Origin: Pirellulales bacterium
Lineage (GTDB): Bacteria > Planctomycetota > Planctomycetia > Pirellulales > JAEUIK01
Assembly (NCBI GenBank): GCA_965227275.1
Contig: CBDDFU010000001.1
Location: 5,050,237 to 5,114,236, forward strand
Length of the DNA: 64,000 nucleotides
Direction of reading: 5' to 3'
Shown: piece by piece, positions 13,334 to 31,087 of the stretch
Position numbering within the stretch: position 1 is the first letter of the stretch
Layout of the letters: each line of letters begins with the position of its first letter
Position numbers and translations under genes: made by a program
Notes under the pieces: model-generated
What the model was told of the DNA's origin: nothing
What the model saw: only the letters and a program-made list of their open reading frames with translations
Databases searched by the model: none

Positions 13334-13352
13334 TAAGTTTGCCAAGCCATCC

Positions 13353-13880
13353 ATGGTCGAGATGATGGAATCGAGCAGCAATCCGCTAGGCGGAAAGAGC
13401 GTTTCCCTGCGGAACCTCATCGCGTGTTTCCGTTGGCAAATCGTTTGCACTTGGTTCTTGGTGATCCTCGAAGCCGCGATGATGTTGACTTTTCCACTAC
13501 TGTTAGGGATTGCCATCGATGGAATGCATCGGCAGAGCTTCCTTGGTTTGTCACTGCTTGGCGGTGTGGGCGTGTTGACGGTTGTAGTTGGTTCCGCTCG
13601 TCGTTTCTATGACACACGTGTTTACTCGCGCATCTACATTGCTGCTGGAAAACAGATTGTCGAACAAGAGCGTAAACGCAATGCGAATGTGTCCGTAATC
13701 TCGGCACGCACTAACATGGTGAGAGAATTGGTTGAGTTCCTGGAATCTTCGTTGCCGGGGATCGTTGATTGTGTGATCGGGCTACTCGGCACATTAGTGA
13801 TGATTTGTTTTTTGCAGGTCAAAGTATTTGCTGGCTGCCTCATCGGTGGCCTTACCCCTTTCTTCGTCCACTTTGAATGA
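13353..13880 (+). pseudogene. ABC-transporter-type six-helix transmembrane domain protein, 3' end truncated by IS3 insertion
   Basis: MVEMMESS... has hydrophobic helices and an ABC_membrane-like loop (RRFYDTRVYSRIY...ARTNMVRELVEFLESSLP). The reading frame runs into the IS3 inverted repeat at 13874 and stops inside it. Confidence 0.55.
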
Positions 13881-14781
13881 GAGAACCTGGGGTTAGATGG
13901 CTGCTGTTCTGGAGTGAGGCCGGAGGCCGAGCGGAAGAACAGCAGCGGGCAGCAAATGTTGCAGGGGTCTGGTAACCCAACGAACTGTGTGGTCGGTAGT
14001 GGTTGTAATCGAGCCGCCAGCGGTCGACAACCCAGCGGGCATCTTCAAGTCCTACGTATAGCTCGCGGTCCAACAGCTCATCCCTGAAGCGACTGTTGAA
14101 GCTTTCCACGTAGCCGTTCTCCCAGGGACTGCCTTTGGCAACAAACAAGGTCTTCACGTGGGCTTGATCCAGCCAACGTGTCACGGCTCGGGCTACAAAC
14201 TCCGGACCGTTGTCACTCCTCAAGTTATCGGGTGCACCACGCACGGCGAACAGGTACTGAAGTACCTCGATGACATGCTGCGACTTGAATGACCAAGCCA
14301 CCTCGATCGCCAGGCTCTCGCGGGTGAATTCATCGATCACCACCAGCATCCGTAGCTTGCGGTTCTTTTCGGTGCGGTCTTCGACAAAGTCGTAGCTCCA
14401 TACATGGTTTGGCCTCAATGCTCGCTTTCGCACACAGCTGTTCTCACTACCGCCACGCGCGAGCCGACGACGTTTATGCTGTTTTCGGGGCACCTGCATG
14501 CCTTCCTCCCGCCATAGACGTTCCACTCGCTTGTGGTTGATCTTCCAGCCACGCTTGGTCAACGCATCGTGAATTCGCGGACTGCCGAATCTGGGACGCC
14601 GGGCCGCGATCCTTCGCATCTCGGCCAATAGCATCGCTTCATCAGACGGACGACGCCTCACGTGTCGCTGAGTCGATCGGGATTGGCCCAGTACCCGGCA
14701 AGCCCGGCGTTCCGAGACCTTCTCGGGCCCCAAACGACGACGAACTTCGATAACGGTTCGCCTTCGCCGTTCGGGGCTCAC
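13852..14781 (-). CDS. IS3-family transposase OrfB (DDE integrase core)
   Basis: 309 aa. It overlaps orfA by 4 nt in the -1 frame. The rve-type core has WSYDF, DNGPEF and the C-terminal YNHYRPHSSLGY motif. Confidence 0.85.
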   Translation of the reverse strand: MSPERRRRTVIEVRRRLGPEKVSERRACRVLGQSRSTQRHVRRRPSDEAMLLAEMRRIAARRPRFGSPRIHDALTKRGWKINHKRVERLWREEGMQVPRKQHKRRRLARGGSENSCVRKRALRPNHVWSYDFVEDRTEKNRKLRMLVVIDEFTRESLAIEVAWSFKSQHVIEVLQYLFAVRGAPDNLRSDNGPEFVARAVTRWLDQAHVKTLFVAKGSPWENGYVESFNSRFRDELLDRELYVGLEDARWVVDRWRLDYNHYRPHSSLGYQTPATFAARCCSSARPPASLQNSSHLTPGSLIQSGRRKG

Positions 14782-15106
14782 CAGTTTCCCTTGGAAGCTT
14801 CCTTGAGGATCTCCATGCCCAGAGCCTGCTCAGCCACCAGCTTCTTCAGCCGGGCGTTCTCTTTCTCGAGAGCCCGCAGTTGCTTGACCATCTCCGGAGC
14901 CATGCCGCCATACTTCTGCCGCCAGCGGTAATAGGTCTGCTCGGTGATCCCGAGCGTCTTACAGATCTCCGGCACCTTCTGGCCCTTACCAAGAGAAACG
15001 TCTGCTAAACGCAACTTCTCAATGATCTGCTCGGTCGTATGTCTGATTCGCTTCATCCGAAAGAATCCTCTCCGGGCTTCGCCCGGTCTGCGATTCTCTC
15101 AATTCA
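13874..15106 (-). mobile_element. IS3-family insertion sequence (IS407/IS2-like organisation), apparently intact
   Basis: Terminal inverted repeats are TGAATGAGAGAAC (13874..) and the reverse complement of ...ATTCTCTCAATTCA (..15106), the latter with one extra base. It carries the orfA/orfB pair. Ends are TG...CA. Confidence 0.75.
14778..15056 (-). CDS. IS3-family transposase OrfA (HTH)
   Basis: 92 aa. MKRIRHTTEQIIEKLR...ICKTLGITEQTYYRWRQKYGGM is typical of IS3 OrfA, with a leucine-zipper-like C-terminus. Confidence 0.85.
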   Translation of the reverse strand: MKRIRHTTEQIIEKLRLADVSLGKGQKVPEICKTLGITEQTYYRWRQKYGGMAPEMVKQLRALEKENARLKKLVAEQALGMEILKEASKGNW

Positions 15107-15171
15107 GCTGGTACGATTCAAAGGGGAAAGGCCAGTCTGACGTAATCGAAACGAAGACGGAGCAGTAAGGT

Positions 15172-18100
15172 ATGACACGCCTTTCACGAAGTGATCTCAT
15201 CAACTGGGCAGATACAAAGCCGTCAGAGGGACAGTTGCCAGAATTAATTCGTCGGCTCATCATGGCATCCAACTCGGCGGTTGAAACGATCGTTATGCCA
15301 TATGGGGACTCGGTTGGACGCTCGGGGCTTGACGGCTATGTCTACGCAAAGAGCAGTTCCAGTCATGTCCCCGAAGGTGCTTCAATTTGGGAGTTAGGTA
15401 CAAACAAGGACCACGTCAGGAAAGCCAATGAAGACTTCAAGAAGAGAACAAGCGGAACAGCGGGTTTTCGACAGAAGGAATTGAACTATCACTGTGTCAC
15501 TCCAAGGCACTGGGAGAAGAAAGCAACGTGGGAGTCTGGTCCGGGGACGGCCAAGGAAAAGATCGTCGGTCATTGGAAGGCCGTCCGCGTATTTGACGTC
15601 GATGACATTCTCGGTTGGTTAATAGATTGCCCGAGCGTCGAGGCTTGGTTTTCTCGGATGCTTGGAAAAGCAACGGCTGGCCTCAGAGATGTCGAAGGCT
15701 ATTGGAAGAATGTTTCGACGACACGTACATGCGTTCTGAAGCCAGCCGTTCTCCTCGCTGGGCGTGAAGAGTTGACGAAGACAGTCCAGTTACACGTTGC
15801 AAGTGGCGACGATAATCCCGTCCCGCTGGCAATAACCTGCAGATCCCCAGCTGAAGTCGTACCGTTTGCTGTCGCCTCGGTAGTTGATTCTGGCGACGAT
15901 GTGGCGATTGCACGCACAGTCGTCGTCGATTTACGCGTACAGTGGGAACAACTCATCACTGAAGAATCTGGCTTGGGATTAATCATTGCTCCACAAGTGC
16001 AGCTGAGTCGAGAAGAACTACAACAGGCAGCGAGCCAGAATCATCGAGTCATCTACTGTTCCACCACCGGAGACATGGGGCTGCCACGTCTCACTGAGTT
16101 TGAGGTGAGCAAAGCTCTAACTTCGTCTGGCGTAGGCGAAGCGGAGGCAACTCAACACGCGAAACAGTGTGGTGGAAACGGGCAGCTTCTACTGGATCGG
16201 TTGTTCGGGCTCGACTTGCCAGCAAGTTCGATCAGGTCAAGTCTCGATGACCGACTAAAGGCAACCTGCCTGCTTCTCGTCGGCTGGGATGGCGACAGTG
16301 CAGCCGATCGAGAGGTATTCTCGATCCTTTCGGGTCTGGCTTACGAACAAATCGAAACTTCACTCATTTCAGATTCAAACGACCCCGATGGACTCCTTTT
16401 TCGAGCTGATGGGAAGTTCAGACTTCTTTCACCAGAGCTTGCTTGGATTCGCTACGCATCGCTCATCACAAAGTCCGTGGTAGAGGATTTTGCTGATGTT
16501 GTGCAATATCTGCTGACTGACGACGATCCAACTGCAGGCATGTCGGGAGAGGAGCGGCTTACGGCTCAGTTTCTCGGTAAGCATCCAGAATTCTCACGAA
16601 CATTGCGGCATAACGTCGTGCATGCACTGGCGATCGCTAACTCAATTGGTGTCCCGCGTTTGAATCTCGATCCTTCCATGAGCCCGTCGTTTGTGGACTG
16701 GATCGTGCGGTCGACTTTGAATGGCGCGGGCTTCAGTCGCTGGGCTTCCTTTGGCAGCGAACTATCGATTCTGGCCGAAGCCGCGCCAGATCCAGTGCTG
16801 GACGCTCTTGAACGCGATCTTCACGCGGACGGACCGCTTGCAGAGGTAATGGAAAAAACTGAGACCGGTCTCTTCTGCTGGCCTGCACACACAGGCATTC
16901 TCTGGGCGCTCGAAAGACTTTGTTGGTCCCCGCAGCATCTGGAACGAGCCATCTGTATTTTGTTGCGGCTGGCCGGACTTAATCCTGAGATTAGATCAGG
17001 CAACAATCCTTCGAACTCGATTCAGGAGACTCTACAGCTCTACTGCCCGCAGACGAACGCCGACTGGCCAACCCGACAGACAGCCATCGCTCGAATGTTG
17101 AAAGAAGATGCAGGAACGGCCTTCAGACTGGTCATCGCGCTCTTTCCTTCGGGGCACTCAAGCTGGATGTGTCGTGAATTGCCAACGTGGCGAGACTGGG
17201 CTCACGGGTATAAGTCGCGCACAACATATCAACAAATCGCCGTTGAAATTCGATGGTGTGTCGAACAACTCCTAGCGATTGCTGCTGGCGATGCCGAGCG
17301 ATGGTGCGCTCTCATTGAACTCTGTGGGGACGTCGAGGACGAACAATATAGGGATATCCTTGGCAGCTATGAGTCGAAGCTGGCTGACGAAGCGTTTGAG
17401 CAGGAGGACAAACGTCTGCTTTGGGAAACGATCAACGCCATGCTGGTCGCTATGGAGTGGAGATCAGCCCGACGACGGTTGGAGAATGGTGAAGTAGTTG
17501 ATGAGAATGAACTTGAAGATTCGGAAGTTGAGTCCGTATCACATTTCCCCGGACAAGTTGATCTCTACGAGAGATTTGGACCACAATTGCGCCAATTACT
17601 CGAAGCTTCAACGCCGGAGGATCCTGTTCTTGCTGGATGCCACGCTTATTTGCAAGGACTTCATCCGAACCACTGCACTCGGCATTTCTCGGATCGCGGC
17701 AACTACGAGAAACAGCAAGAACTTATCGATGAAGCGCGAAGGTCCATTGCGTTAAGAGTCTGGCGTACCAAAGGTCTGGACGGTTTACGAAGCCTGGCGG
17801 AGATTGCTCACGTCGATGCAGACGGTGTTGGAAGAACAGCAGCAGTTACTGAAGAAGTGTCAGTCGAACTTGATGAGCTACTTCCACTCCTTTCGTCAAA
17901 GACGCAGTCAGACCGAATGTTCGCGAGCGGATTTGTCGCTATTTGGGCGTGGCAGCACAAAAATTCGCTTTCGACCAAAGTGTTTCCTCTTTTGCCGACG
18001 ATGTCCTCGGATGAGACGATTTCGTCGTATCTGCGCTGCCTCCCTCCCGTACCGGAAGTCTGGGATTGTATTGACCAACAAAGCGAGGCCGTCCAGAAGC

Positions 18101-19047
18101 TTTACTGGAAGAATGCACCAGTGCCTTGGGAAATCCCAGAGGGAAGGCTTCCGTATTTTATCAGAAACTTGAATAAGGTCGCCCGCGCGGATCGAGCGGT
18201 CGACCTGCTGACCGGTCGAAGGAAGGACATCGGCGACCGCGACGTTGATTTAGTCTTTGAGGTGTTGGAAGCGTTGCCCCTTGTCGAGCTGCATCCAGAC
18301 GAGCGACACGGCGGCAGTCTGTCGTGGAATATTCAGGAACTCTTCAGTGTGCTCTACAAGTTTGGAATGTCTCAAGTCGAACGGCTTGTTCTGTTGGAAC
18401 TGCTTTATCACCATGTGTTCGAAAGCGACGAAAGCCGGAAATTTCAGCCAAAAGGACTGCTGGTTGCGATCAGGGATTCTCCGATTCTGTTCGTCGATTT
18501 GCTCAAATATCGCTACAAAGACGACAGCGGCGCATCGACCACACCAGAGGACGAACAGACTAACGCTGTAGCGAAGCAAGTAATTGGACTGCTTCACCAC
18601 CTTGCAGAACTGCCGGGACAGTCCGAATTGTGTCCAATGAGTGGCCGGACGACTGCGGATTGGGTTACTGAAGTGATTCAAATCGCATCTGAAAATCGGT
18701 ATCTCACTGCGGTTGGACTCCTGCTTCCTGACATCATAACAAGTGGAGCATGGAACATGATTGAAACATGGCCCACGGCCGATATGGCCGAAGCCATCAA
18801 TATTCTAGCTGACGCAATCCCAGAAATATTCCCACGACATCTCGCCGTCAGCCTCTCGATCGCTCGAGGCTTTCACTGGCTTGATCCATCCGGACAGTCA
18901 GAGAAAAGCCAAGCCGAGAAACTCCGAATTCGAGCGGGCCAACTTGTACAAACCTGCCCAGCCGCATCAAGGGCACTACTGGACGTTGCACAAGGACTTG
19001 ATTCCGAGGCAAGAAGTAATGTAGAGCGTGCGAAGTGGCAGCGATGA
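15172..19047 (+). CDS. large orphan protein (1291 aa), predicted mostly alpha-helical repeat with a distinct N-terminal ~170-aa module
   Basis: Long uninterrupted ORF with a coding-like composition. No Walker A, HExxH or other catalytic motif recognised. The N-terminal module carries GLDGYVY...IWELGTNKD. Confidence 0.7.
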   Translation: MTRLSRSDLINWADTKPSEGQLPELIRRLIMASNSAVETIVMPYGDSVGRSGLDGYVYAKSSSSHVPEGASIWELGTNKDHVRKANEDFKKRTSGTAGFRQKELNYHCVTPRHWEKKATWESGPGTAKEKIVGHWKAVRVFDVDDILGWLIDCPSVEAWFSRMLGKATAGLRDVEGYWKNVSTTRTCVLKPAVLLAGREELTKTVQLHVASGDDNPVPLAITCRSPAEVVPFAVASVVDSGDDVAIARTVVVDLRVQWEQLITEESGLGLIIAPQVQLSREELQQAASQNHRVIYCSTTGDMGLPRLTEFEVSKALTSSGVGEAEATQHAKQCGGNGQLLLDRLFGLDLPASSIRSSLDDRLKATCLLLVGWDGDSAADREVFSILSGLAYEQIETSLISDSNDPDGLLFRADGKFRLLSPELAWIRYASLITKSVVEDFADVVQYLLTDDDPTAGMSGEERLTAQFLGKHPEFSRTLRHNVVHALAIANSIGVPRLNLDPSMSPSFVDWIVRSTLNGAGFSRWASFGSELSILAEAAPDPVLDALERDLHADGPLAEVMEKTETGLFCWPAHTGILWALERLCWSPQHLERAICILLRLAGLNPEIRSGNNPSNSIQETLQLYCPQTNADWPTRQTAIARMLKEDAGTAFRLVIALFPSGHSSWMCRELPTWRDWAHGYKSRTTYQQIAVEIRWCVEQLLAIAAGDAERWCALIELCGDVEDEQYRDILGSYESKLADEAFEQEDKRLLWETINAMLVAMEWRSARRRLENGEVVDENELEDSEVESVSHFPGQVDLYERFGPQLRQLLEASTPEDPVLAGCHAYLQGLHPNHCTRHFSDRGNYEKQQELIDEARRSIALRVWRTKGLDGLRSLAEIAHVDADGVGRTAAVTEEVSVELDELLPLLSSKTQSDRMFASGFVAIWAWQHKNSLSTKVFPLLPTMSSDETISSYLRCLPPVPEVWDCIDQQSEAVQKLYWKNAPVPWEIPEGRLPYFIRNLNKVARADRAVDLLTGRRKDIGDRDVDLVFEVLEALPLVELHPDERHGGSLSWNIQELFSVLYKFGMSQVERLVLLELLYHHVFESDESRKFQPKGLLVAIRDSPILFVDLLKYRYKDDSGASTTPEDEQTNAVAKQVIGLLHHLAELPGQSELCPMSGRTTADWVTEVIQIASENRYLTAVGLLLPDIITSGAWNMIETWPTADMAEAINILADAIPEIFPRHLAVSLSIARGFHWLDPSGQSEKSQAEKLRIRAGQLVQTCPAASRALLDVAQGLDSEARSNVERAKWQR

Positions 19048-19464
19048 TTCAAACAGGGCGATACCCTGAGCCACGATACCAGAGGATCCTCTCTCGTAAT
19101 TTGGTGACCACGACCAAATCACTGAAACGGCGACCGCGTCCGGGGCTGACATGTGCGCGAAAATGGGGTGCCGAAATCTGCACAGGACCGACACACCGAA
19201 GCAGACTAAGGTGGCGTGTCATTATCAGTATTCTCATGCTCGGAGTTGATCACCGTTGGGCTTATAGCATTCGCAAGAATTGTTTTGGGTTGCAATAAGG
19301 ATTTTCTTTCCCACCGAATGCCACTTGCGACTGAATGCGTCCTCAGGTCAGAGGTGGTAGCTCTTCACGGCCACGAGATTCGCATCGGATAACCCCCCAC
19401 CCCAGAAATTGCGCCCAAAAAATTGCGAGCTTGGACGGGCGGTCCACGGGGCGCGAAGATCTAG

Positions 19465-21052
19465 CCTGGATATTTCATTGGCTGAGCGGGACGCCCCTCT
19501 AGCGCGAAAGCCTTAGTTACGGTAGAAATTGGAGTTGCAACACTTCAACACCCTTACCGAACCAAGGCTTTCACGATGACACAGTGTAAACGGAAGAAGG
19601 CGACTCTGAAACGGCTGCGGCGGCGAGAAGTTGCAGCGGATTTCAACGGCGGACGATTGACCAGCGACGGGGGGTTGCTGGTGCTTCGCGAGGTCGAGCG
19701 GCGGCTCGGCTTGCTGGATGCGGTGAATGCGGCGATTCCCGATCCACGTGACCCTCGCTATACCGTGCACGAGCAACGCGAGTTGCTCGCGCAGCGGATC
19801 TTTGCCATTGCTGCCGGGTACGAAGACGAAAACGACCACGACCAACTGCGACACGATCCGGCCCTGCAAGTGGTCGCGGAGCGAGAGCCGGAAGAAGACC
19901 AGCCTCTGGGAAGTCCTTCGACACTTTGTCGCTTAGAGAATCGCATTTCACGCCAGACCGTCGGCCGTCTTCATCAGGTACTGGTGGATCAGTTCCTGAC
20001 AAGTTACGACGAGCCTCCCGATGAAATCGTGCTCGATCTGGACGCCACCGATGATCCGCTGCATGGCCAGCAGGAAGGGCGTTTCTTCAACGGCTATTAC
20101 CGCTGCTACTGTTATCTGCCGCTGTACGTCTTCTGTGGATCGCACCTGTTGGTAGCGCTACTGCGAAGCAGCAACATCGACGCCGCGAAGCACTGCCGGG
20201 CTGTCGTACGGTTGCTGGTGCGTTATGTCCGCAAACACTGGCCTCAAACGCGGATCATTCTTCGTGGCGACAGTGGATTCTGCCGCTGGAAGCTGATGCG
20301 TTGGTGCGACAAGAACAACGTGGATTACATCGTTGGGGTCGCCAGAAATCCCCGTCTCCAAGCGGCCTGCGAGCCTTTGATGAAAGACGCGGAAGCGGAG
20401 TTTGAAACCACCGGCGAGAAGGTGCGACGGTTTGCCTGGTTGGATTACGCAGCACATAGCTGGGATCGTCGCCGACGCGTGATTGCGAAAGCCGAGCGTT
20501 TGCCCAAGGGGCGAAATCCTCGTTTCGTTGTCACCACGTTGAAAGGCGATCCGCAGCAACTCTACGAAGACGTGTATTGTCAACGCGGTGATATGGAGAA
20601 TCGGATCAAAGAGCAGCAACGAATGCTCTTCGCCGATCGGACCAGTTGCCAAGCCATGCTGGCCAATCAATTCCGGCTGCTGCTCTCCGGGTTGGCTTAT
20701 ACGTTGCTCGACGCCCTTCGCCGCATTGCCTTAGTCGGCACGGAAATGGCCACCGCACAGTCAGACACCCTTCGACTGAAACTCATCAAAGTGGCCGCGC
20801 GTGTCCGTGTCACCGCACGACGAGTCGTGTTTCATTTGGCAAGCTGTTGCCCATGGGAGCCACTTCTGCGTCAAGCGCTGACGACGCTCTACGACACCAG
20901 CTAACGCACCACGGCACCTCTGCTTACCGCATGGCCCAGCGGGGAGAAAGGGGGCCTTCTGCGCTCCCTTCGACAAAATCTCGCTCCGCTGCTGAAATCG
21001 ACCGCCCCGCCCAAAAAAACCCCGGCAACAAACAACGGATGAAATATCCGGG
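19465..21052 (+). mobile_element. IS1380-family insertion sequence, copy A
   Basis: Near-identical to 28259..29845. Imperfect terminal inverted repeats: CCTGGATATTTCAT... and ...ATGAAATATCCGGG. Flanked by CTAG (left) and CTAA (right). Confidence 0.85.
19576..20904 (+). CDS. IS1380-family DDE transposase
   Basis: 442 aa. LTSDGGLLVLRE N-terminal motif, DLDATDDPLHGQQEG, RGDSGF and QRGDMENRIKE blocks resemble what I remember of ISEcp1/IS1380 transposases. Confidence 0.85.
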   Translation: MTQCKRKKATLKRLRRREVAADFNGGRLTSDGGLLVLREVERRLGLLDAVNAAIPDPRDPRYTVHEQRELLAQRIFAIAAGYEDENDHDQLRHDPALQVVAEREPEEDQPLGSPSTLCRLENRISRQTVGRLHQVLVDQFLTSYDEPPDEIVLDLDATDDPLHGQQEGRFFNGYYRCYCYLPLYVFCGSHLLVALLRSSNIDAAKHCRAVVRLLVRYVRKHWPQTRIILRGDSGFCRWKLMRWCDKNNVDYIVGVARNPRLQAACEPLMKDAEAEFETTGEKVRRFAWLDYAAHSWDRRRRVIAKAERLPKGRNPRFVVTTLKGDPQQLYEDVYCQRGDMENRIKEQQRMLFADRTSCQAMLANQFRLLLSGLAYTLLDALRRIALVGTEMATAQSDTLRLKLIKVAARVRVTARRVVFHLASCCPWEPLLRQALTTLYDTS

Positions 21053-23043: not shown

Positions 23044-23204
23044 ATCAAGCCGAGATGTCCTGGTTCAGCGTGAAATGGAATTTTACCTTACTGGCGTTAA
23101 CTAGTTGAGCGGCTGTTGCCGCGGGGTTGATATTGCGTACACGCAGACCAGGGGTGCTCATTGCCGCCCCCTGGACTCCTGGCTAGCCTCTCCTCCTATT
23201 CTTG

Positions 23205-24204: not shown

Positions 24205-24518
24205 TCTTTTTTTGCTTTGACGTTCTCCTCCATCAACTCGGCGATCACTTCATTCTTGGTCGAGAGCTTGGCCTGGAGTTGCTCGATGCGACGCTCCGCA
24301 GTCGACTTGCCGCTCGCCTTCCGCTCAAACGCGACGGCACCTCCTTCAAACAACTGTTTCTGCCACTGATAGAACTGCGTCGGCAGAATCTGATGCTTGT
24401 CGCACAGATCGGAAACGGCAATGCCATCGACCAAGTGCTGCTTGACGATCAAAACCTTCTGCTCGCCCGAAAAATGCCGCCGTTCACGCTTGGCGGAACT
24501 GTTGCTGGAACCCTTCAT
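24189..24518 (-). CDS. IS3-family transposase OrfA
   Basis: ATG 24518 is preceded by AAGGAGG. Contains FSGEQKVLIVKQHLVDGIAVSDLCDKHQILPTQFYQWQKQL (HTH) and a coiled-coil C-terminus. Confidence 0.8.
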   Translation of the reverse strand: MKGSSNSSAKRERRHFSGEQKVLIVKQHLVDGIAVSDLCDKHQILPTQFYQWQKQLFEGGAVAFERKASGKSTAERRIEQLQAKLSTKNEVIAELMEENVKAKKECGEL

Positions 24519-24749
24519 GGAATCCTCCTTCGATTCGACGTATGCTAACGCCCGCGAAGAGAAATTCCAGTTCCGACTGAGGCAGGACACCAACAGCAAA
24601 AAAAAACCCGAAACTCTTGAGCAAAACGAAGTCATTTGGTGACTACGTACTACGGAGGGCGATCTTTCGACAAGGCCTACGCGACTCATGAGTCACCCGA
24701 TGACCGAGTTGTTACGTTTCTTTACACTACTTAACAAGAAGGAGAGTCT

Positions 24750-24977
24750 ATGGTTACCGATTGTCTACCGCTGCTGGTCGACGTGAGAGAGGTGTCACGA
24801 ATGCTGTCCTGCTCTCCCAGGCACGTCTACAGGCTCGCGGATCGTGGAGCCATTCCAAAGGCCATCAAACTCGGTGGGCTCAGGAGATGGGATCGTGGTG
24901 AACTTGAGAGGTGGGTGCAGGAGCAGAATCCGTCCAACACGCGTCCACTCGGCGTCCATAGAGTACCGACGTCGTAA
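24750..24977 (+). CDS. excisionase/AlpA-family HTH DNA-binding protein
   Basis: 75 aa. LLVDVREVSRMLSCSPRHVYRLADRGAIPKAIKLGGLRRWDRGELERWV matches the helix-turn-helix_17/AlpA pattern. AAGGAGAG RBS. Confidence 0.75.
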   Translation: MVTDCLPLLVDVREVSRMLSCSPRHVYRLADRGAIPKAIKLGGLRRWDRGELERWVQEQNPSNTRPLGVHRVPTS

Positions 24978-25006
24978 AGCACCGCACAGAAAGGATTTAT
25001 TATGCG

Positions 25007-25207: not shown

Positions 25208-25299
25208 CGTCCTGACGTCTTTTTCTCTCTCCGCGAAGAACTGTTCCACGGGGCACGGTTCGCAGGGTTGATCTCTCTTTGGCACTTGAGGAGCTAGTT

Positions 25300-27807
25300 A
25301 TGACATTGCGCAGTAATCCAGCGGCAGCGGAACGGATGTTGAAGATTCTCGGCAATGGGACTTGCGAGATCAGGGCCCTCGGCTCCGGTCAACCACTCAA
25401 CGGGTATTTCGGCGATCCGGCATCCGCTGCTCAAGCCGCCTGCGAAATCAATGAGGCACACGGCCTTCGCAACGTCTACGTTACCGTCAACGAAATTCGC
25501 GAGGGTTACCGTGAGTCTTATTCAGAGAAGCTAGAAGGAGGGACTGCTGTTAAGGCGAATGACATCATCCGGCTACGGCATCTCGTGTCGGACATCGATC
25601 CGTTGAAACCAAAGGGCGTTACCGACCCTGCGACCGAGAGTGAGCATGCTGCTTCGTACGCTGTGCGTAGGCAACTCAAGCAACACCTCACCAGCCGTGG
25701 CTGGCCCTTGCCGGTCGAAATGAGTTCAGGGAACGGCTGCTACCTAATCTACCGCATTGATCTCCCTAACAATACTGAACATGTTGAGCTGATTCGGCGT
25801 GTCTTGGCATCTCTGGGGAACTTATACGACAGCAAGGACGCGAAGGTCGATCGAAATGTCCATGATCCGGGCCGGGTCTTTCGATTGGCAGGGACGATCA
25901 ACAGAAAGGGTGATGAGAGCTCTGAGCGTCCCTACCGAGTTGCCAGCCTGATATCAGTACCTGAAGGAGATGACCTGAAGCCTGTGAGCGAGGAGCAGCT
26001 TCGAGAGATTGCTTCCAATGAGATCGAATCGCAGAAGAACAAGCCGATGTGGTATCAAGCTCTTGCCAAGGCTTCTCCCGCGGAACGCGACAAGAGAGTT
26101 GAGGCCCTAACGACTTTTCTGAAGAATCACGACCGTGTCCCTGTTTCTATCTCTGAGGAAGAGCGTTTTACGAAAATCGATCTTCCATACTGCACGCGGG
26201 GCGCGGAACACGCGGACGGGAATCCGGCGGTGTTTGTACGCCCAGACGGTACCATCGGCTACCACTGCTTTCACACGAAATGTAGCCACATCGGTTGGCA
26301 TGAATTCCAAGAAGCGCTGGGTTCCACATTTGAGGATCCGGTATTCGGAGGAATTGTTGCCTTGGCCTACGACAATCCTCGCATGCTCGCTCATCGCTTC
26401 CTGCAAGGATTCCGGGCACCGGATGATGCCTACAAGATCGCCCACTTCTTGTGCGACACGTATCGCTTCTATGACACGGTCGGTTGGCGGAAGCTCAAGC
26501 CCGGTGAACTCAACGCGGAGGTTCGGGGCTCCATTCAGGAGGCCTTCGATGAACACGCGCGGTCAACAGGCAAAGGGGCCCTGGCCAAGCCTGTGAAGTC
26601 GGCGCTTGTTGGTGACACGTTCGGAGCCATCCAAACGATCTGTTCCCAAGACGTGGCTCCCGACTTCCAAGTTCCGTTTTGGTTTGAGAAACAAACCTCC
26701 TGGGCTCCCGAGGACTTGCTGGTCTTGCAAAACGGCTTGCTCGATATCAGGAAGTACGTCCAAGGGGATAGAGAAGTGTTGAGACCGATCACCCCGAAGC
26801 TCTTCTTCCAGCATCGGGCGAAGTTCGATTTCGATCCGAATGCCCCGCAACCATCAGCGTGGCACTCGTTCCTCAACACCCTAAAGCAGGACGAAGACTG
26901 GATCGCATGTCTTCAAGAGATCATGGGTTATTGTCTCTGGTTGGGTTTTGATGTCCAAAAGTACTTCATGTTGATCGGTCCACCACGTTCAGGAAAAGAG
27001 ACGATAACCAGGGTTCTGACCGACCTCCTCGGCGGGGCCGTCTGTAGTCCGAATCTAGAGGATTTTGTGAAGGAGTTCGGTCTTGAGCAGGCACTCGGCA
27101 AGCGTCTGGCGATTGTTCCAGAAGCCGTCTCCCCAGGGCGGAACGAGGATAAAATCGTCTCGCAGCTTAAGGCAATCACCGGTGGGGATCAGATCACGGT
27201 CAATGTTAAACACCGAGCGAACTTGTCCCTTCAGCTTCGGCTGAAGATCCTGATGCAGACCAATGACTTCATCGCGCTTCCCGATACATCGGGAGCCTTG
27301 TTGACACGACTCATACCGCTTCGGTTGACCGAGTCCTTTAGGGGGGCTGAGGACATCAATCTGAGCAGTAAGCTTGCTGAGGAATACCCCGGCATCTTGA
27401 GTTGGTCCCTAGAGGGCCTGAAACGTTTGCACGAAAAAGAGGGTCGCTTCACACTACCGCAGTCCAGCAAGAATGAGCTGGAACAGCTTCAGGACGCTTC
27501 TTCACCGCTGCTGCGCTTCGTACAGGACTGCTGCTTGCTCGACTCGCGAGAAGGTGTTGAAACCACGGCACTGCATAAGATCTTCTTGTCGTGGCGTGAG
27601 CAGAATAATGACGAAGTTCCCGAAATGAATAAGTCCGCATTCAATACCTCTCTGCGAACGACTGTGCCCAAGATAAGCTCCTGTCGCGCAGGAAGCCGGA
27701 ATCCAGGGGACTTTTCCATCGTTCAAACAAAACATGACACGACAACACTGAGGCCTCAAGTCTGGAAAGGAATCCGCCCCAACCCCGAATGGTGCACTTC
27801 CGCTTGA
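25300..27807 (+). CDS. primase-polymerase (AEP-like) / zinc-ribbon / D5-P4-type SF3 helicase fusion
   Basis: ATG 25300 is preceded by GAGGAG. N-terminal motifs VSDIDP, SSGNGCYLIYRI and FRLAGTINRK are AEP prim-pol-like. A Cys/His cluster is present (CTRGAEH...YHCFHTKCSH). Walker A is GPPRSGKET. The C-terminal region resembles phage/plasmid primase P4-family helicases. Confidence 0.85.
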   Translation: MTLRSNPAAAERMLKILGNGTCEIRALGSGQPLNGYFGDPASAAQAACEINEAHGLRNVYVTVNEIREGYRESYSEKLEGGTAVKANDIIRLRHLVSDIDPLKPKGVTDPATESEHAASYAVRRQLKQHLTSRGWPLPVEMSSGNGCYLIYRIDLPNNTEHVELIRRVLASLGNLYDSKDAKVDRNVHDPGRVFRLAGTINRKGDESSERPYRVASLISVPEGDDLKPVSEEQLREIASNEIESQKNKPMWYQALAKASPAERDKRVEALTTFLKNHDRVPVSISEEERFTKIDLPYCTRGAEHADGNPAVFVRPDGTIGYHCFHTKCSHIGWHEFQEALGSTFEDPVFGGIVALAYDNPRMLAHRFLQGFRAPDDAYKIAHFLCDTYRFYDTVGWRKLKPGELNAEVRGSIQEAFDEHARSTGKGALAKPVKSALVGDTFGAIQTICSQDVAPDFQVPFWFEKQTSWAPEDLLVLQNGLLDIRKYVQGDREVLRPITPKLFFQHRAKFDFDPNAPQPSAWHSFLNTLKQDEDWIACLQEIMGYCLWLGFDVQKYFMLIGPPRSGKETITRVLTDLLGGAVCSPNLEDFVKEFGLEQALGKRLAIVPEAVSPGRNEDKIVSQLKAITGGDQITVNVKHRANLSLQLRLKILMQTNDFIALPDTSGALLTRLIPLRLTESFRGAEDINLSSKLAEEYPGILSWSLEGLKRLHEKEGRFTLPQSSKNELEQLQDASSPLLRFVQDCCLLDSREGVETTALHKIFLSWREQNNDEVPEMNKSAFNTSLRTTVPKISSCRAGSRNPGDFSIVQTKHDTTTLRPQVWKGIRPNPEWCTSA

Positions 27808-28258
27808 TCGGAAGGCCTCTACCTCTGATAAACAACTAATCCAACTCCCCCCGGAGATATTCCCATGGGATCTGTTTTCAGAAAGAAAGTCTCTCGCCCT
27901 ATTCCAAAGGACGCTCAATTTGTCGAGCGCAACGGCAAGCGAGTTGCACGTTGGAAGGGACGCAACGGACGGTCCAAAACTGCCCCAATCATACTTTCCA
28001 AGAGCGGCAAAGAATGAATTCTCGACACGGCGGCAACCTACACGGCTCGCTACCGCGATGGGCAAGGAATCGTGCGTCAGGTATCCACTAGATGTCGGGA
28101 CGCGGGTGCCGCGAAAGCTGTCTTAGCTCAACTGGAGCAACGCGCGGAAAGAGTTCGTTCTGGCATCTTGTCTGCTTCTGAAGATGCGGCAATCGACCAT
28201 CAAGCAACGCCGTTGTCTGAGCACTTCGAGAAGTACCACGAGCACCGCAGGGCGCTAG

Positions 28259-29845
28259 CCTGGATATTTCATTGGCTGAGCGGGACGCCCCTCTAGCGCG
28301 AAAGCCTTAGTTACGGTAGGAATTGGAGTTGCAACACTTCAACACCCTTACCGAACCAAGGCTTTCACGATGACACAGTGTAAACGGAAGAAGGCGACTC
28401 TGAAACGGCTCCGGCGGCGAGAAGTTGCAGCGGATTTCAACGGCGGACGATTGACCAGCGACGGGGGGTTGCTGGTGCTTCGCGAGGTCGAGCGGCGGCT
28501 CGGCTTGCTGGATGCGGTGAATGCGGCGATTCCCGATCCACGTGACCCTCGCTATACCGTGCACGAGCAACGCGAGTTGCTCGCGCAGCGGATCTTTGCC
28601 ATTGCTGCCGGGTACGAAGACGAAAACGACCACAACCAACTGCGACACGATCCGGCCCTGCAAGTGGTCGCGGAGCGAGAGCCGGAAGAAGACCAGCCTC
28701 TGGGAAGTCCTTCGACACTTTGTCGCTTAGAGAATCGCATTTCACGCCAGACCGTCGGCCGTCTTCATCAGGTACTGGTGGATCAGTTCCTGACAAGTTA
28801 CGACGAGCCTCCCGATGAAATCGTGCTCGATCTGGACGCCACCGATGATCCGCTGCATGGCCAGCAGGAAGGGCGTTTCTTCAACGGCTATTACCGCTGC
28901 TACTGTTATCTGCCGCTGTACGTCTTCTGTGGATCGCACCTGTTGGTAGCGCTACTGCGAAGCAGCAACATCGACGCCGCGAAGCACTGCCGGGCTGTCG
29001 TACGGTTGCTGGTGCGTTATGTCCGCAAACACTGGCCTCAAACGCGGATCATTCTTCGTGGCGACAGTGGATTCTGCCGCTGGAAGCTGATGCGTTGGTG
29101 CGACAAGAACAACGTGGATTACATCGTTGGGGTTGCCAGAAATCCCCGTCTCCAAGCGGCCTGCGAGCCTTTGATGAAAGACGCGGAAGCGGAGTTTGAA
29201 ACCACCGGCGAGAAGGTGCGACGGTTTGCCTGGTTGGATTACGCAGCACATAGCTGGGATCGTCGCCGACGCGTGATTGCGAAAGCCGAGCGTTTGCCCA
29301 AGGGGCGAAATCCTCGTTTCGTTGTCACCACGTTGAAAGGCGATCCGCAGCAACTCTACGAAGACGTGTATTGTCAACGCGGTGATATGGAGAATCGGAT
29401 CAAAGAGCAGCAACTAATGCTCTTCGCCGATCGGACCAGTTGCCAAGCTATGCTGGCCAATCAATTCCGGCTGCTGCTCTCCGGGTTGGCTTATACGTTG
29501 CTCGACGCCCTTCGCCGCATTGCCTTAGCCGGCACGGAAATGGCCACCGCACAGTCAGACACCCTTCGACTGAAACTCATCAAAGTGGCCGCGCGTGTCC
29601 GTGTCACCGCACGACGAGTCGTGTTTCATCTGGCAAGCTGTTGCCCATGGGAGCCACTTCTGCGTCAAGCGCTGACGACGCTCTACGACACCAGCTAACG
29701 CACCACGGCACCTCTGCTTACCGCATGGCCCAGCGGGGGAAAGGGGGCCTTCTGCGCTCCCTTCGACAAAATCTCGCTCCGCTGTTGAAATCGACCGCCC
29801 CGCCCAAAAAACACCCGGCAACAAACAACGGATGAAATATCCGGG
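28259..29845 (+). mobile_element. IS1380-family insertion sequence, copy B, inside the integrase gene
   Basis: Same ends as copy A. Flanked by a perfect 4-bp CTAG direct repeat (28255..28258 and 29846..29849). Conceptual removal of the IS plus one CTAG restores the integrase reading frame. Confidence 0.9.
28370..29698 (+). CDS. IS1380-family DDE transposase
   Basis: 442 aa, differing from the copy-A protein at three residues (D/N, R/L, V/A). Confidence 0.85.
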   Translation: MTQCKRKKATLKRLRRREVAADFNGGRLTSDGGLLVLREVERRLGLLDAVNAAIPDPRDPRYTVHEQRELLAQRIFAIAAGYEDENDHNQLRHDPALQVVAEREPEEDQPLGSPSTLCRLENRISRQTVGRLHQVLVDQFLTSYDEPPDEIVLDLDATDDPLHGQQEGRFFNGYYRCYCYLPLYVFCGSHLLVALLRSSNIDAAKHCRAVVRLLVRYVRKHWPQTRIILRGDSGFCRWKLMRWCDKNNVDYIVGVARNPRLQAACEPLMKDAEAEFETTGEKVRRFAWLDYAAHSWDRRRRVIAKAERLPKGRNPRFVVTTLKGDPQQLYEDVYCQRGDMENRIKEQQLMLFADRTSCQAMLANQFRLLLSGLAYTLLDALRRIALAGTEMATAQSDTLRLKLIKVAARVRVTARRVVFHLASCCPWEPLLRQALTTLYDTS

Positions 29846-31014
29846 CTAGGTCTCAATGCCATGCGGATCACCAATACCGAAGCTCGATTGAATCGACTTG
29901 CCGAGGAGTGCACTTTCTCCTCGTTGAAATGCCTTCGTGCGGACGCGTTAGAGTCATGGCTCGCTGAGCGTAAGAAGGAAGGGATGTCCCCAGGAACGCG
30001 TAACGAGTACCGGCAGGAACTGGTGGGCTTTGGGAATTGGTGCGTGAGTACATCGCGTTTGACCGAGAATCCCTTCTCCCGCGTAGCGAAGGCTGATGCA
30101 CGCTCAGATCAACGACGCAAGCGACGTGCCATGAGCGAGCCTGAGCTGCAACGACTGTTGTATGTGGCCGAGATGCGCCCCATTGCAGAGCGTGGCCGCC
30201 TCAAAGTGCGGAAGAAGGGACGCGGTTGGAAGTAGGCCCCGTTGGACGCCGAGAGCTTCGAGGGTGCAGTGGAGCGAGGCACAGCGGCACTGAAGGACAA
30301 TCCTGGACTGCTGGCCAACCTCAAACGCCGTGGTCGAGAGCGAGCACTGATCTATAAGACGCTGGTTCTCACCGGGCTTCGTCGAGGGGAGCTCGCCTCG
30401 ATCTCGCTGGGGCAGGTGCAATTGGACGGGCAGATTCCACATGTGATCCTTGATGCCAAGAGCGCGAAGAATCGGCAAGTAGCAGAGCTTCCACTGCGGG
30501 CGGATTTGGTGGAGGACCTGCAAAAGTGGATCGCCGAGAAACAAGTCACCAAGCCTGATGCACCGCTCTTCAACGTTTCGACCAGCTTGCTGCGGGTGCT
30601 GAATCGCGACCTGGAAGCTGCGAACATTCCTAAGCGCGATGAGCGCGGTAGGACGCTTGATATCCACGCCCTGCGACACAGCTTCGGGACGTTTCTGAAG
30701 CACATCGGGAGTGGCACCTCGTACTGCACAGGCAGCCATGCGGCACGCAAGCATTGATCTAACGATGAACGACTACACCGACCCAAAATTGCTTGATGTG
30801 CAAGGGGAGCTGCAGTCACTGCCAGCCCTGGCGATCACTCAACAGGATTCCTGCGTTGCACTCATTCCTGGCAATGTGGGTCGGGTTGGGGCAATTACCG
30901 ACAAACCCACACCTCAGCATCGAGACGAACGCGAATCGCCCACCAAAGTCGTAAGTGGTTGCGAAAACACGAAAAAAAGCCCGCTGCCATGGGCTGACAA
31001 CGAGCGTCAAATAG

Positions 31015-31087
31015 TGGAGCGGAAGGGAGTCGAACCCTCGACCTCTGCATTGCGAACGCAGCGCTCTCCCAACTGAGCTACCGCCCC
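31015..31087 (-). tRNA. tRNA-Ala (anticodon CGC)
   Basis: The reverse complement GGGGCGGTAGCTCAGTTGGGAGAGCGCTGCGTTCGCAATGCAGAGGTCGAGGGTTCGACTCCCTTCCGCTCCA folds as a cloverleaf by hand. It has a 7-bp acceptor stem with the G3:U70 alanine identity pair, a CTGCG/TGCAG anticodon stem around loop TTCGCAA, and a GGTTCGA T-loop. CCA is not encoded. Confidence 0.9.

What the first reader, a model, noticed from the sequence alone, without database searches (positions are those of the whole stretch)
13874..31087. Decayed ~17 kb integrative element anchored at tRNA-Ala(CGC)
A tyrosine integrase pseudogene faces the 3' end of tRNA-Ala(CGC). Leftward lie a prim-pol/SF3-helicase gene, an AlpA-type excisionase, four IS copies from two families, and two large genes with no recognisable family. 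That is the gene grammar of a tRNA-targeting integrative element or satellite. All mobility functions look crippled, while the two orphan ORFs and the primase remain intact, which would fit an immobilised island whose cargo is retained. By eye I found no left-hand direct repeat of the tRNA 3' end. The left border coincides with an IS3 that truncates a host gene, so the original attL may have been lost.
Basis: partly seen in the sequence, partly recalled or inferred. Interest (0 to 1): 0.6.

Follow-up and report, generated by a model that had tools for sequence, protein, structure and literature searches.

The report
Broken mobile island beside tRNA-Ala
This is the insertion-sequence-riddled wreck of a horizontally acquired integrative element parked next to a tRNA-Ala gene. 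It is an ordinary kind of feature, but its one clearly intact large cargo gene looks like an unusual immune-sensor-type protein (Avs/STAND-like, with no ATP-binding loop).

Summary
tRNA-Ala(CGC) lies at 31014-31087(-). A tyrosine integrase points at its 3' end and is dead from four lesions: an IS1380 insertion, two nonsense codons and one frameshift. An intact AlpA/HTH_17 gene and an intact P4-type primase/SF3 helicase lie upstream. There are two 99%-identical IS1380 copies and two unrelated IS3-family copies. At the left edge, IS3#1 truncates an ABC-transporter gene.

No repeat of the tRNA 3' end exists anywhere in the window. The same search recovers a 22-nt att repeat in an intact comparator element. 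The closest available relative (about 80% amino-acid identity) is syntenic up to about 50-70 bp past the tRNA and then diverges completely. The island genes are rare or patchy in public data and compositionally atypical.

- The junction is downstream of the tRNA terminator, not shown to be inside the tRNA.
- Both IS3 copies lack target-site duplications, so they mark rearrangement breakpoints.
- AlpA and three of the four transposases are intact.
- The 1291-aa "orphan" belongs to PHROG 18693. It has an Avs/STAND-like fold without any P-loop, and it recurs as cargo of intact tRNA-linked elements and inside a defence island.
- The 491-aa ORF may be 5'-truncated.

Verdict: an ordinary decayed island whose cargo is moderately interesting.

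The parts
13305..13846 (+). 5' fragment of an ABC transporter gene (ABC_membrane_3), cut by IS3#1. It is the last host-like sequence on the left.
   Evidence: Pfam PF13748 positions 1-140 of 237. No matching nucleotide-binding domain or remainder anywhere in the window.
13847..15134 (-). IS3-family element #1, intact. OrfA is 14778-15056 and orfB is 13852-14781 in the -1 frameshift arrangement. It has TG...CA inverted repeats and no target-site duplication (cgg versus gtc), so it marks a rearrangement or deletion junction.
   Evidence: (transpos_IS3 239 bits, cutoff 160).
15172..19047 (+). Intact 1291-aa gene, a member of PHROG 18693. Its fold is Avs/STAND-like: an N-terminal alpha-beta-beta-beta-alpha-beta domain with invariant D54/E74 and near-invariant K84, then an alpha/beta domain with no P-loop, a helical and winged-helix part, and ARM/TPR-like repeats. 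Putative anti-phage sensor-effector.
   Evidence: Homology to solo copies elsewhere is bounded at window 15152-19108.
19465..21052 (+). IS1380-family element copy 1, with an intact 442-aa transposase (19576-20904). Inverted repeats CCTGGATATTTCAT and ATGAAATATCCGGG; flanks CTAG and CTAA.
21568..23043 (-). 491-aa ORF in the lowest-GC segment (0.49-0.51). It has no close homologue and only remote relatives at 25-30% identity. Its reading frame is open up to the IS3#2 boundary, so it is possibly 5'-truncated.
23056..24589 (-). IS3-family element #2, different from #1. It has 44-nt imperfect TG...CA inverted repeats, orfB broken by a frameshift, and no target-site duplication (aga versus cca).
24750..24977 (+). 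AlpA-type HTH_17 gene (excisionase/regulator), an intact 75-aa ORF.
   Evidence: Pfam HTH_17 E 9e-13 and Phage_AlpA E 2e-5. phrog_66, excisionase and transcriptional regulator.
25279..27807 (+). Intact primase/SF3-helicase (called as 835 aa in the public record). It is full length relative to its three homologues.
   Evidence: TIGR01613 130.5 bits (cutoff 108.7), DUF5906, D5_N, Pox_D5. PHROG DNA primase families. PDB 7ola 'DNA primase' E 3e-7. Homologues.
27865..28258 (+). Integrase pseudogene, N-terminal part, with an in-frame stop at 28015-28017.
28259..29845 (+). IS1380-family element copy 2, a simple insertion into the integrase gene. CTAG is duplicated on both sides and the integrase frame continues across the insertion.
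29850..30950 (+). Integrase pseudogene, core-binding and catalytic parts. In-frame stop at 30233-30235 and a frameshift near 30715. The catalytic Tyr motif (NDYTD) lies near 30774. The tail runs toward the tRNA.
   Evidence: Pfam Phage_integrase E 1.8e-9. phrog_1 and phrog_216 integrase. Reconstruction.
30942..31013 (-). tRNA-distal flank (a hairpin-like element followed by a T-run) that is still homologous to the element-free relative L001. The island/host junction lies at its left edge, about 30942-30967.
   Evidence: blastn 81.7% identity over window 31180-30967; tblastx reaches 30942.
31014..31087 (-). tRNA-Ala(CGC), intact.
   Evidence: ARAGORN. Rfam RF00005 65.8 bits.

Best explanation
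Window 13,847 to about 30,950 is the immobilised, IS-shattered remnant of horizontally acquired DNA that abuts tRNA-Ala(CGC).

The tRNA-proximal 6.4 kb (24.6-30.95 kb) is the core of a small integrative element. An AlpA-type regulator/excisionase and a P4-type primase/SF3 helicase, both intact, sit upstream of a tyrosine integrase. The integrase would have catalysed site-specific recombination at or next to the tRNA. It is now dead through an IS1380 insertion, two nonsense codons and a frameshift.

The distal 11 kb carries accessory genes. One is an intact 1291-aa Avs/STAND-like protein. I infer it is an anti-phage sensor with an N-terminal nuclease-like effector that works without a canonical P-loop. 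The other is a 491-aa gene of unknown function that may have lost its 5' end.

The original distal attachment site is gone. The left edge is an IS3 copy without a target-site duplication that also deleted most of a host ABC-transporter gene. The element can no longer excise, and what persists is whatever is still useful or not yet eroded.

Shown: all parts, the lesions, the absence of an att repeat, absence of the island genes at the tRNA-Ala locus of the one syntenic relative, atypical composition, and the recurrence of both the module and the cargo on intact tRNA-linked elements elsewhere.

Inferred: that all segments arrived as one element, the exact att site, and the defence function.
For: - Parts and lesions.
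- Relatives of the primase sit in the same int / HTH_17 / primase / tRNA grammar. L083 has primase, HTH_17 and a 433-aa integrase overlapping tRNA-Val. L084 has tRNA-Phe, integrase, HTH_17 and primase.
- Synteny with L001 runs from window 41753 down to about 30950 and then stops. L001 has surface-protein and glycan genes there instead.
- Tetranucleotide correlation with the right flank is 0.62-0.74 for the non-IS island segments. Size-matched host chunks give 0.85-0.90.
- Rarity: the primase has 3 full-length homologues, the 491-aa ORF has none close, and the 1291-aa gene has 41 patchy homologues.
- The 1291-aa homologue is cargo of an intact 20.2-kb tRNA-Val element with a 22-nt att repeat (L086). 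Another is cargo of an int / DUF3631 / HTH_17 element (L088).
- A distant homologue lies in a defence island of reverse-transcriptase, DISARM-like, SIR2 and MmeI-type genes (L090).
- AF2 model of residues 1-740 has pLDDT 89.9. The top PDB folds are Avs3 (E 7e-7), SAMD9, Apaf-1 and Avs4.
- 14 of 31 family members hit the PADLOC PD-Lambda-4_A (Avs8A) profile, best E 9e-11.
- IS3#1 and IS3#2 lack target-site duplications, and the remainder of the ABC gene is absent.
Against: - No att repeat was found, so integration at this tRNA is inferred from the gene grammar alone.
- About 50-70 bp downstream of the tRNA is still homologous to the element-free relative. That is not expected if the crossover had been inside the tRNA, as it is in L086.
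- The integrase is not related in sequence to those of L083, L084 or L086.
- Only one syntenic relative was available, and it is distant (about 80% amino-acid identity). Its left side shares nothing with window 1-13.8 kb, so the pre-insertion state is unknown.
- The left flank (1-13.8 kb) also has lower GC (0.534 versus 0.57) and an intermediate k-mer signature, so the foreign region may be larger.
- The 1291-aa gene occurs alone among housekeeping-like genes in L081 and L082. It therefore need not have come with the primase module.
- The defence function is unproven. The family has no Walker A or B motif, and the N-terminal nuclease assignment is below significance (best Foldseek E 0.046).
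Confidence: 0.68

Rival explanations
1. A mosaic hotspot rather than one element. The tRNA-adjacent site accumulated at least three independent acquisitions: the AlpA-primase-integrase mini-element, the low-GC 491-aa segment, and the 1291-aa cassette. IS3 and IS1380 activity later stitched and trimmed them.
For: - The 1291-aa gene is a self-contained 3.95-kb homology unit found alone in unrelated contexts.
- The segments differ in GC: 0.527, 0.512, 0.533 and 0.572.
- Each segment boundary is an IS, and both IS3 copies lack target-site duplications.
Against: - Intact elements elsewhere carry this same cargo family together with an integrase and replication genes inside one pair of att repeats (L086; also L088).
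- Contiguity next to one integrase is the simpler reading.
- No second integrase or att remnant was found in the window.
Confidence: 0.22
2. A larger genomic island. The element or variable region extends left beyond 13.8 kb, possibly beyond the window start, and includes the decarboxylase/permease cluster. The IS3 edge would then be internal, not a border.
For: - GC of 1-13.8 kb is 0.534, like the island and unlike the right flank at 0.57.
- Left-flank chunks correlate less well with the right flank than right-flank chunks do.
- None of the left-flank genes is present in the 9.6 kb downstream of the tRNA in L001.
Against: - The left-flank genes are ordinary metabolic and transport genes with no mobility functions.
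- The k-mer deviation is mild (0.72-0.80).
- No att repeat lies in 1-13.8 kb either.
Confidence: 0.08
3. An IS1380 composite transposon. The two directly repeated IS1380 copies mobilised the 7.2-kb segment between them (the 491-aa ORF, IS3#2, AlpA, the primase and the integrase 5' end) into this site.
For: The two copies are 99.2% identical, in direct orientation and 8.8 kb apart. CTAG lies on both outer flanks.
Against: - The integrase reading frame continues exactly across copy 2 once the IS and one CTAG are removed. Copy 2 is therefore a simple insertion into a pre-existing integrase gene.
- CTAG or CTAA is found at all four flanks, so it looks like a target preference rather than a diagnostic duplication.
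Confidence: 0.02

Closest known systems
tRNA-associated genomic islands / integrative mobilisable elements with a tyrosine integrase next to the tRNA 3' end
   Same: - The integrase faces the tRNA 3' end.
- An AlpA-type excisionase/regulator is present.
- There is accessory cargo and atypical composition.
- The island genes are absent from a related genome at the same tRNA.
- Decay is by IS insertion and point lesions.
   Different: - No flanking direct repeat was found.
- The host/island junction is about 50-70 bp beyond the tRNA rather than demonstrably inside it.
- The distal end is replaced by an IS3 deletion junction.
P4-like satellites and Gram-negative PICI-type islands (int, alpA, pri/rep core)
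   Same: - It has the same trio: integrase, AlpA and a P4-family primase fused to an SF3 helicase (TIGR01613).
- The helicase part matches PDB 7ola, deposited as 'DNA primase'. From memory only, I believe this is the primase-helicase of a staphylococcal pathogenicity island.
   Different: - No capsid-redirection, packaging or helper-exploitation genes were found.
- No iteron-type origin was found.
- The gene order is alpA, pri, int reading toward the tRNA.
- The host is a planctomycete with no known helper phage. Membership is not supported.
Avs (antiviral STAND) proteins, especially Avs8 = PD-lambda-4A (Mrr nuclease + P-loop STAND + TPR-like sensor; senses major capsid protein; bioRxiv 10.1101/2025.07.02.662641 and 10.64898/2026.01.04.697583)
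   Same: - The 1291-aa protein is almost the same length (profile 1283 positions).
- It has the same domain order: N-terminal nuclease-like domain, an NBD-like alpha/beta domain, a helical/winged-helix part, then helical repeats.
- Its top structural neighbours are Avs3, Avs4, SAMD9 and Apaf-1.
- A collinear weak profile match exists (residues 533-649 versus model 560-669).
- It is associated with mobile elements and defence islands.
   Different: - No Walker A or B motif occurs in any of 31 family members. The P-loop position carries a conserved Ser/Glu...Glu.
- Sequence similarity is limited to about 110 residues.
- No conserved partner gene (Avs8B equivalent) is seen.
- The nuclease fold assignment is not significant.
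IS1380 and IS3 family insertion sequences
   Same: - The IS1380 transposase scores 418 bits on the equivalog model, and the element has terminal inverted repeats and a 4-bp CTAG duplication.
- The IS3 copies have orfA/orfB with a -1 frameshift and TG...CA ends.
   Different: - Both IS3 copies lack the expected short target-site duplication.
- IS3#2 has a frameshifted orfB.

Membership tests
tRNA-targeting integrative element / genomic island | Tyrosine integrase gene adjacent to the 3' end of a tRNA gene | tested here: met
   The integrase pseudogene spans 27865 to about 30950(+), and the tRNA 3' end is at 31014.
tRNA-targeting integrative element / genomic island | Direct repeats (attL/attR) containing the tRNA 3' segment at both ends | tested here: not met
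   The longest shared word is 12 nt, and that is on the 5' side of the tRNA. The best ungapped match scores 10. The positive control L086 gives a 22-nt repeat.
tRNA-targeting integrative element / genomic island | Absent from the same locus in a related genome (empty or differently occupied site) | tested here: met
   L001 is syntenic for more than 10 kb up to about 50-70 bp past the tRNA and unrelated beyond that. This is one relative only, at about 80% amino-acid identity, and its site is differently occupied rather than empty.
tRNA-targeting integrative element / genomic island | Crossover within the tRNA gene, so that sequence just downstream of the tRNA is element-derived | tested here: not met
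   Window 31013-30967 (up to 30942 by tblastx) is still homologous to L001, about 82% identical by blastn.
tRNA-targeting integrative element / genomic island | Atypical composition relative to the host flank | tested here: met
   Tetranucleotide correlation is 0.62-0.74 for island segments and 0.85-0.90 for size-matched host chunks.
P4-like satellite / PICI | int + alpA + primase/replicase core | tested here: met
P4-like satellite / PICI | Helper-exploitation or packaging genes (capsid size redirection, small terminase, etc.) | tested here: not met
   Pfam, PHROG and NCBIfam scans of the ORFs examined in 13.8-31 kb gave no structural or packaging hits.
P4-like satellite / PICI | Induction and packaging by a helper phage | not testable with these tools
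   This needs experiment.
Avs / STAND NTPase defence proteins (1291-aa gene) | Tripartite architecture: effector, then NBD-helical-winged-helix module, then repeat sensor | tested here: met
   AF2 pLDDT 89.9 for residues 1-740. Foldseek hits: Avs3 E 7e-7 (prob 1.0), SAMD9, Apaf-1, Avs4, NLRP3 NACHT and ARM repeats.
Avs / STAND NTPase defence proteins (1291-aa gene) | P-loop NTPase motifs (Walker A GxxxxGK[ST], Walker B) | tested here: not met
   No Walker A in the query or in any of 30 homologues. The alignment shows S/E..E at the beta1-alpha1 loop.
Avs / STAND NTPase defence proteins (1291-aa gene) | N-terminal effector domain (for example a PD-(D/E)xK/Mrr nuclease) | tested here: inconclusive
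   The domain model (pLDDT 90.9) has an alpha-beta-beta-beta-alpha-beta core with invariant D54 and E74 and near-invariant K84. The best folds are Avs3, NucS, EcoO109I, Cdn1, Can2 and Cap4, but at E of 0.046 or worse.
Avs / STAND NTPase defence proteins (1291-aa gene) | Genomic association with defence islands or mobile elements | tested here: met
   L090 is a defence island. L086 and L088 are integrative elements. The gene belongs to PHROG 18693. Two of the seven contexts examined were plain chromosomal.
Avs / STAND NTPase defence proteins (1291-aa gene) | Anti-phage activity triggered by a phage protein | not testable with these tools
   This needs experiment.
Avs8 / PD-lambda-4 | Full-length match to the PD-Lambda-4_A profile, plus a partner gene B | tested here: not met
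   Only residues 533-649 match, at E 2e-6. 14 of 31 members match, best E 9e-11. No conserved neighbouring gene across L081, L082 and L086-L090.
IS1380 family | IS1380 transposase, terminal inverted repeats, short target duplication | tested here: met
   NF033539 418 bits (cutoff 180). Inverted repeats CCTGGATATTTCAT and ATGAAATATCCGGG. CTAG duplication at copy 2.
IS3 family | orfA/orfB with a -1 frameshift, TG...CA inverted repeats, 3-5 bp target duplication | tested here: inconclusive
   The ORF arrangement and inverted repeats are met for both copies, although orfB of #2 is frameshifted. The target duplication is absent at both copies.

The most novel reading that the evidence does not exclude
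The 1291-aa gene represents a family (PHROG 18693; about 40 members in Planctomycetota, Gemmatimonadota and Armatimonadota) of STAND-derived immune sensors. They keep the Avs architecture and a nuclease-like effector but have lost the P-loop entirely. They would therefore oligomerise or fire without nucleotide binding or hydrolysis. They spread as single-gene cargo on tRNA-linked integrative elements. The gene's survival intact in an otherwise dead element would reflect selection for defence.
Probability: 0.3. Interest if true: 0.6.

Novelty: new member of a known kind. Interest (0 to 1): 0.33.

Why it matters
The decayed island is routine genome archaeology. It illustrates how IS activity both kills an element's integrase and erases its borders, so that att-repeat-based island finders would miss it.

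The more useful outcome concerns the 1291-aa gene. A large "hypothetical" gene with no Pfam match can now be placed with the Avs/STAND-type immune receptors on four grounds: structure, weak profile similarity to Avs8, defence-island context, and repeated carriage on integrative elements. It lacks the nucleotide-binding loop that defines the superfamily.

If it is active, it would extend the known mechanistic range of bacterial NLR-like sensors. It would also give a first candidate defence gene for Planctomycetota, a phylum with almost no phage-host data.

Tried and rejected
- Exact-protein look-ups of window genes (GSHPx, DUF1501, the 1291-aa ORF) found no record. The source genome's neighbours could not be pulled that way.
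- The single genome-contig scan (GSHPx) gave only one syntenic relative, L001. The other 79 loci lack the tRNA linkage; 16 were checked.
- Both metagenome scans were empty: the primase protein, and the tRNA 3' end plus conserved downstream 31-mer.
- A viral-contig scan with the reconstructed integrase was empty.
- tblastn of the integrase, AlpA, the 491-aa ORF and the left-flank genes against all fetched loci gave nothing useful.
- PDB sequence and profile searches for the 1291-aa and 491-aa families gave nothing.
- Searches for iterons or tandem repeats near the primase, as a replication origin, found none.
- Joining the two flanks of IS1380 copy 1 did not restore a convincing gene.
- The composite-transposon reading of the IS1380 pair was rejected, because the integrase frame is continuous across copy 2.
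- A prim-pol (AEP) domain in the primase N-terminus could not be confirmed by Pfam, even at E of 5 or less.


Full report
**Observation**

ARAGORN and Rfam both find one genuine tRNA in the region, tRNA-Ala(CGC) at 31014-31087 on the minus strand. Its 3' end therefore faces left, toward the finding.

The features to the left of the tRNA, from 13.3 kb rightward, are:
- a 191-aa ORF (13305-13880) matching only positions 1-140 of the 237-position ABC_membrane_3 model;
- an IS3-family element at 13847-15134 with canonical TG...CA inverted repeats and intact orfA/orfB in the -1 frameshift arrangement;
- a 1291-aa ORF at 15172-19047 (+);
- an IS1380-family element at 19465-21052 with an intact 442-aa transposase;
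- a 491-aa ORF at 21568-23043 (-), in the lowest-GC kilobase of the window (0.49);
- a second, unrelated IS3-family element at 23056-24589, whose orfB is only 34% identical to the first over 94 aa and is frameshifted;
- an intact 75-aa HTH_17/AlpA gene at 24750-24977 (+);
- an intact 842-aa primase/helicase at 25279-27807 (+) with TIGR01613 above its curated cutoff, DUF5906, D5_N and Pox_D5;
- a tyrosine integrase on the + strand from 27865 to about 30950.

The integrase is unambiguously a pseudogene. Removing the second IS1380 copy (28259-29845) and one CTAG restores a continuous reading frame across the insertion point. That frame still carries in-frame stops at 28015-28017 and 30233-30235. 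It also needs a frameshift near 30715 to reach the RHxxxxxxxxxY catalytic end, with NDYTD near 30774. The two IS1380 copies are 99.2% identical.

**Search for the missing attachment site**

I looked for any direct or inverted copy of the tRNA and 70 nt of flank across the whole window. The longest exact word shared outside the locus is 12 nt and lies on the 5' side of the tRNA. The best ungapped local match scores 10. The same script recovers the 22-nt att repeat of an intact comparator element, L086. The negative result is therefore meaningful: there is no attL within at least 31 kb.

**Borders**

The single scan of species-representative genomes produced one syntenic relative, L001, a Planctomycetaceae MAG with flank proteins 70-88% identical. 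It is collinear with the window from 41753 down through the glutathione peroxidase gene and the tRNA. Homology then continues a further 47 bp (blastn, 81.7% identity over window 31180-30967) to 72 bp (tblastx, to 30942) past the tRNA 3' end. This stretch includes a hairpin-like element followed by a T-run. Beyond it, nothing matches.

L001 carries a 2123-aa malectin/Ig surface protein and glycan-synthesis genes there instead. The right border of the variable DNA is therefore about 30942-30967. That is next to the tRNA but not demonstrably inside it. In L086, by contrast, identity between the att copies stops right at the tRNA 3' end.

The left border at 13847 is not an att site. IS3#1 has no target-site duplication (cgg versus gtc). 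The C-terminal two-thirds of the ABC gene it interrupts is nowhere in the window. IS3#2 also lacks a duplication (aga versus cca). Both IS3 copies therefore sit at rearrangement or deletion junctions. IS1380 copy 2, by contrast, is a clean simple insertion.

**Is the DNA foreign?**

Non-IS island segments correlate with the right flank's tetranucleotide profile at 0.62-0.74. Size-matched chunks of the flank itself give 0.85-0.90, with minima of 0.75-0.85. The IS copies look host-like.

The genes are rare:
- The primase has only three full-length homologues (about 40% identity) among 5.8 billion clustered proteins.
- The 491-aa ORF has no close relative. An exhaustive HMMER pass found 55 remote ones at 25-30% identity, none with a Pfam, PHROG or PDB assignment.
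- The 1291-aa protein has 41 patchily distributed homologues.

One caveat applies. The left flank (1-13.8 kb) holds amino-acid permeases, a porin, two Orn/Lys/Arg decarboxylases, a TetR regulator and an AhpC-cytochrome c fusion. It also has lower GC (0.534 versus 0.57) and an intermediate k-mer signature, so the variable region could be larger.

**The mobility module**

The primase's homologues supply the missing context.
- In L083 the order is primase, HTH_17, an intact 433-aa integrase (not called in the public record), and tRNA-Val(TAC). The integrase ORF runs 41 nt into the tRNA complement.
- In L084 the order is tRNA-Phe, integrase, HTH_17, an integrase fragment and the primase.

The AlpA/primase/integrase trio is thus a recurrent tRNA-linked integrative module in these bacteria, and the window holds a dead copy.

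The integrases themselves are not similar between the window and these loci, so the target specificity cannot be transferred. The trio is also the hallmark of P4-like satellites and Gram-negative PICIs. However, no packaging or capsid-redirection gene and no iteron origin was found, so membership in those families is not supported. The 'prim-pol' label for the primase N-terminus rests only on DxD and sGxGxY-like motifs, and Pfam finds nothing there even at E of 5 or less.

**The 1291-aa cargo gene**

This is the most interesting part. The protein has no Pfam or NCBIfam hit, but it matches phrog_18693 end to end (E 3e-81).

An AlphaFold2 model of residues 1-740, built with 30 homologues, is confident (pLDDT 89.9, pTM 0.84). 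Its best PDB neighbours are all STAND proteins: Avs3 (E 7e-7, prob 1.0), SAMD9, Apaf-1, Avs4 and NLRP3-NACHT. Armadillo-repeat proteins follow.

PADLOC gives a weak, collinear hit to PD-Lambda-4_A (residues 533-649 versus model 560-669 of 1283; E 2e-6). 14 of 31 family members reproduce it, with a best E of 9e-11. PD-lambda-4A has been renamed Avs8A. It is described as an Mrr-nuclease plus P-loop STAND protein that senses phage major capsid protein (bioRxiv 10.1101/2025.07.02.662641; 10.64898/2026.01.04.697583).

Neither the window protein nor any homologue has a Walker A motif. The beta1-alpha1 loop carries a conserved S/E..E instead.

The N-terminal 170 residues fold as alpha-beta-beta-beta-alpha-beta, with invariant D54 and E74 and near-invariant K84. 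Their weak fold neighbours are coherently PD-(D/E)xK nucleases (Avs3, NucS, EcoO109I, Cdn1, Can2, Cap4) but are not significant, at E of 0.046 or worse.

Genomic context supports a defence or accessory role:
- A 70%-identical homologue is cargo of an intact 20.2-kb tRNA-Val element bounded by a 22-nt att repeat (L086).
- A 36%-identical homologue sits in an int / DUF3631 / HTH_17 element beside ParE (L088).
- A 26%-identical homologue lies in a Gemmatimonadota defence island, among reverse-transcriptase, PLD+MZB+helicase, SIR2 and MmeI-type genes (L090).
- Another lies directly after a tRNA-Met (L087).
- Two others stand alone among ordinary genes (L081, L082). Their homology to the window is bounded at 15152-19108, so the gene also moves as a single-gene cassette.

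I therefore read it as an Avs-like sensor-effector that has lost the P-loop. This is an inference, and the protein fails the defining STAND feature.

**Mechanism and history (inferred)**

An AlpA/primase/integrase element carrying accessory genes integrated at or just downstream of tRNA-Ala(CGC). IS1380 then inserted into the integrase gene, and point lesions accumulated. Two different IS3 elements mediated deletions or rearrangements. These removed the distal end, along with most of a neighbouring ABC-transporter gene, and possibly the 5' end of the 491-aa gene. That gene's frame is open up to the IS3#2 boundary, and its remote homologues carry about 30-40 more N-terminal residues.

The 1291-aa gene, AlpA and the primase remain full length. 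Only 37 bp now separate the 1291-aa start codon from IS3#1, so its present transcription is uncertain.

**Rivals**

- A mosaic of independent acquisitions at a tRNA-adjacent hotspot is plausible, given the cassette behaviour of the 1291-aa gene and the IS-bounded segments.
- A larger island extending left is possible, given the composition of the left flank.
- An IS1380 composite transposon is rejected by the continuity of the integrase frame.

**Verdict**

As a class this is an ordinary decayed genomic island: a new member of a known kind. The P-loop-less Avs-like cargo family is worth a follow-up experiment.

Noticed in passing
window 17-9493: An acid-resistance-like cluster: an amino-acid permease, a porin-like protein, two tandem Orn/Lys/Arg decarboxylases (3355-5664 and 5561-8059) and a second amino-acid permease. 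Its GC is 0.534, against 0.57 for the right flank, and its tetranucleotide signature is intermediate. It could be part of a larger variable region.
   Followed up: partly
window 62094-62191: ARAGORN calls a 98-nt tRNA-Ala(GGC) here, but Rfam's tRNA model does not, and the site lies inside ORF 61071-62231. It is probably a false positive.
   Followed up: partly
window 56951-57542 and 58620-59223: Direct repeats at 73-75% identity that correspond to two neighbouring paralogous genes (56820-58106 and 58468-59715, both on the minus strand). This looks like a tandem gene duplication.
   Followed up: no
L086 2809-23088: An intact 20.2-kb integrative element at tRNA-Val(TAC). It has a 22-nt att repeat (2863-2884 and 23060-23081), an integrase overlapping the tRNA 3' end, a family-A DNA polymerase, a 70%-identical homologue of the 1291-aa gene and a 2497-aa dockerin/Big_5 protein.
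   Followed up: yes
L090 1-24086: A Gemmatimonadota defence island: RVT_1+Trypsin_2, PLDc_2+MZB+helicase (DISARM-like), SIR2_2, an MmeI-type methyltransferase and SNF2. It surrounds an HTH_3-fused distant homologue (1361 aa) of the 1291-aa protein, which is followed by a co-directional 424-aa gene that is also conserved in L091.
   Followed up: partly
L083 9444-10745; L086 2842-4233; window 30711-31076: The integrase reading frames run into the complement of the adjacent tRNA. The C-termini ...GDEGLEPPTS(T/S)V in L083 and L086 are encoded by the tRNA-Val 3' half, and the window's frameshifted integrase frame reads ...ERKGVEPSTS through tRNA-Ala. The 433-aa integrase of L083 is not called in the public record.
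   Followed up: partly
window 8998-10791: A 597-aa ORF (TTG start) overlaps the end of the amino-acid permease gene and has no Pfam hit. The real gene probably starts later, and its function is unknown.
   Followed up: no
window 19461-19464, 21053-21056, 28255-28258, 29846-29849: All four flanks of the two IS1380 copies read CTAG or CTAA. This suggests a palindromic CTAG target preference for this IS rather than informative duplications.
   Followed up: partly
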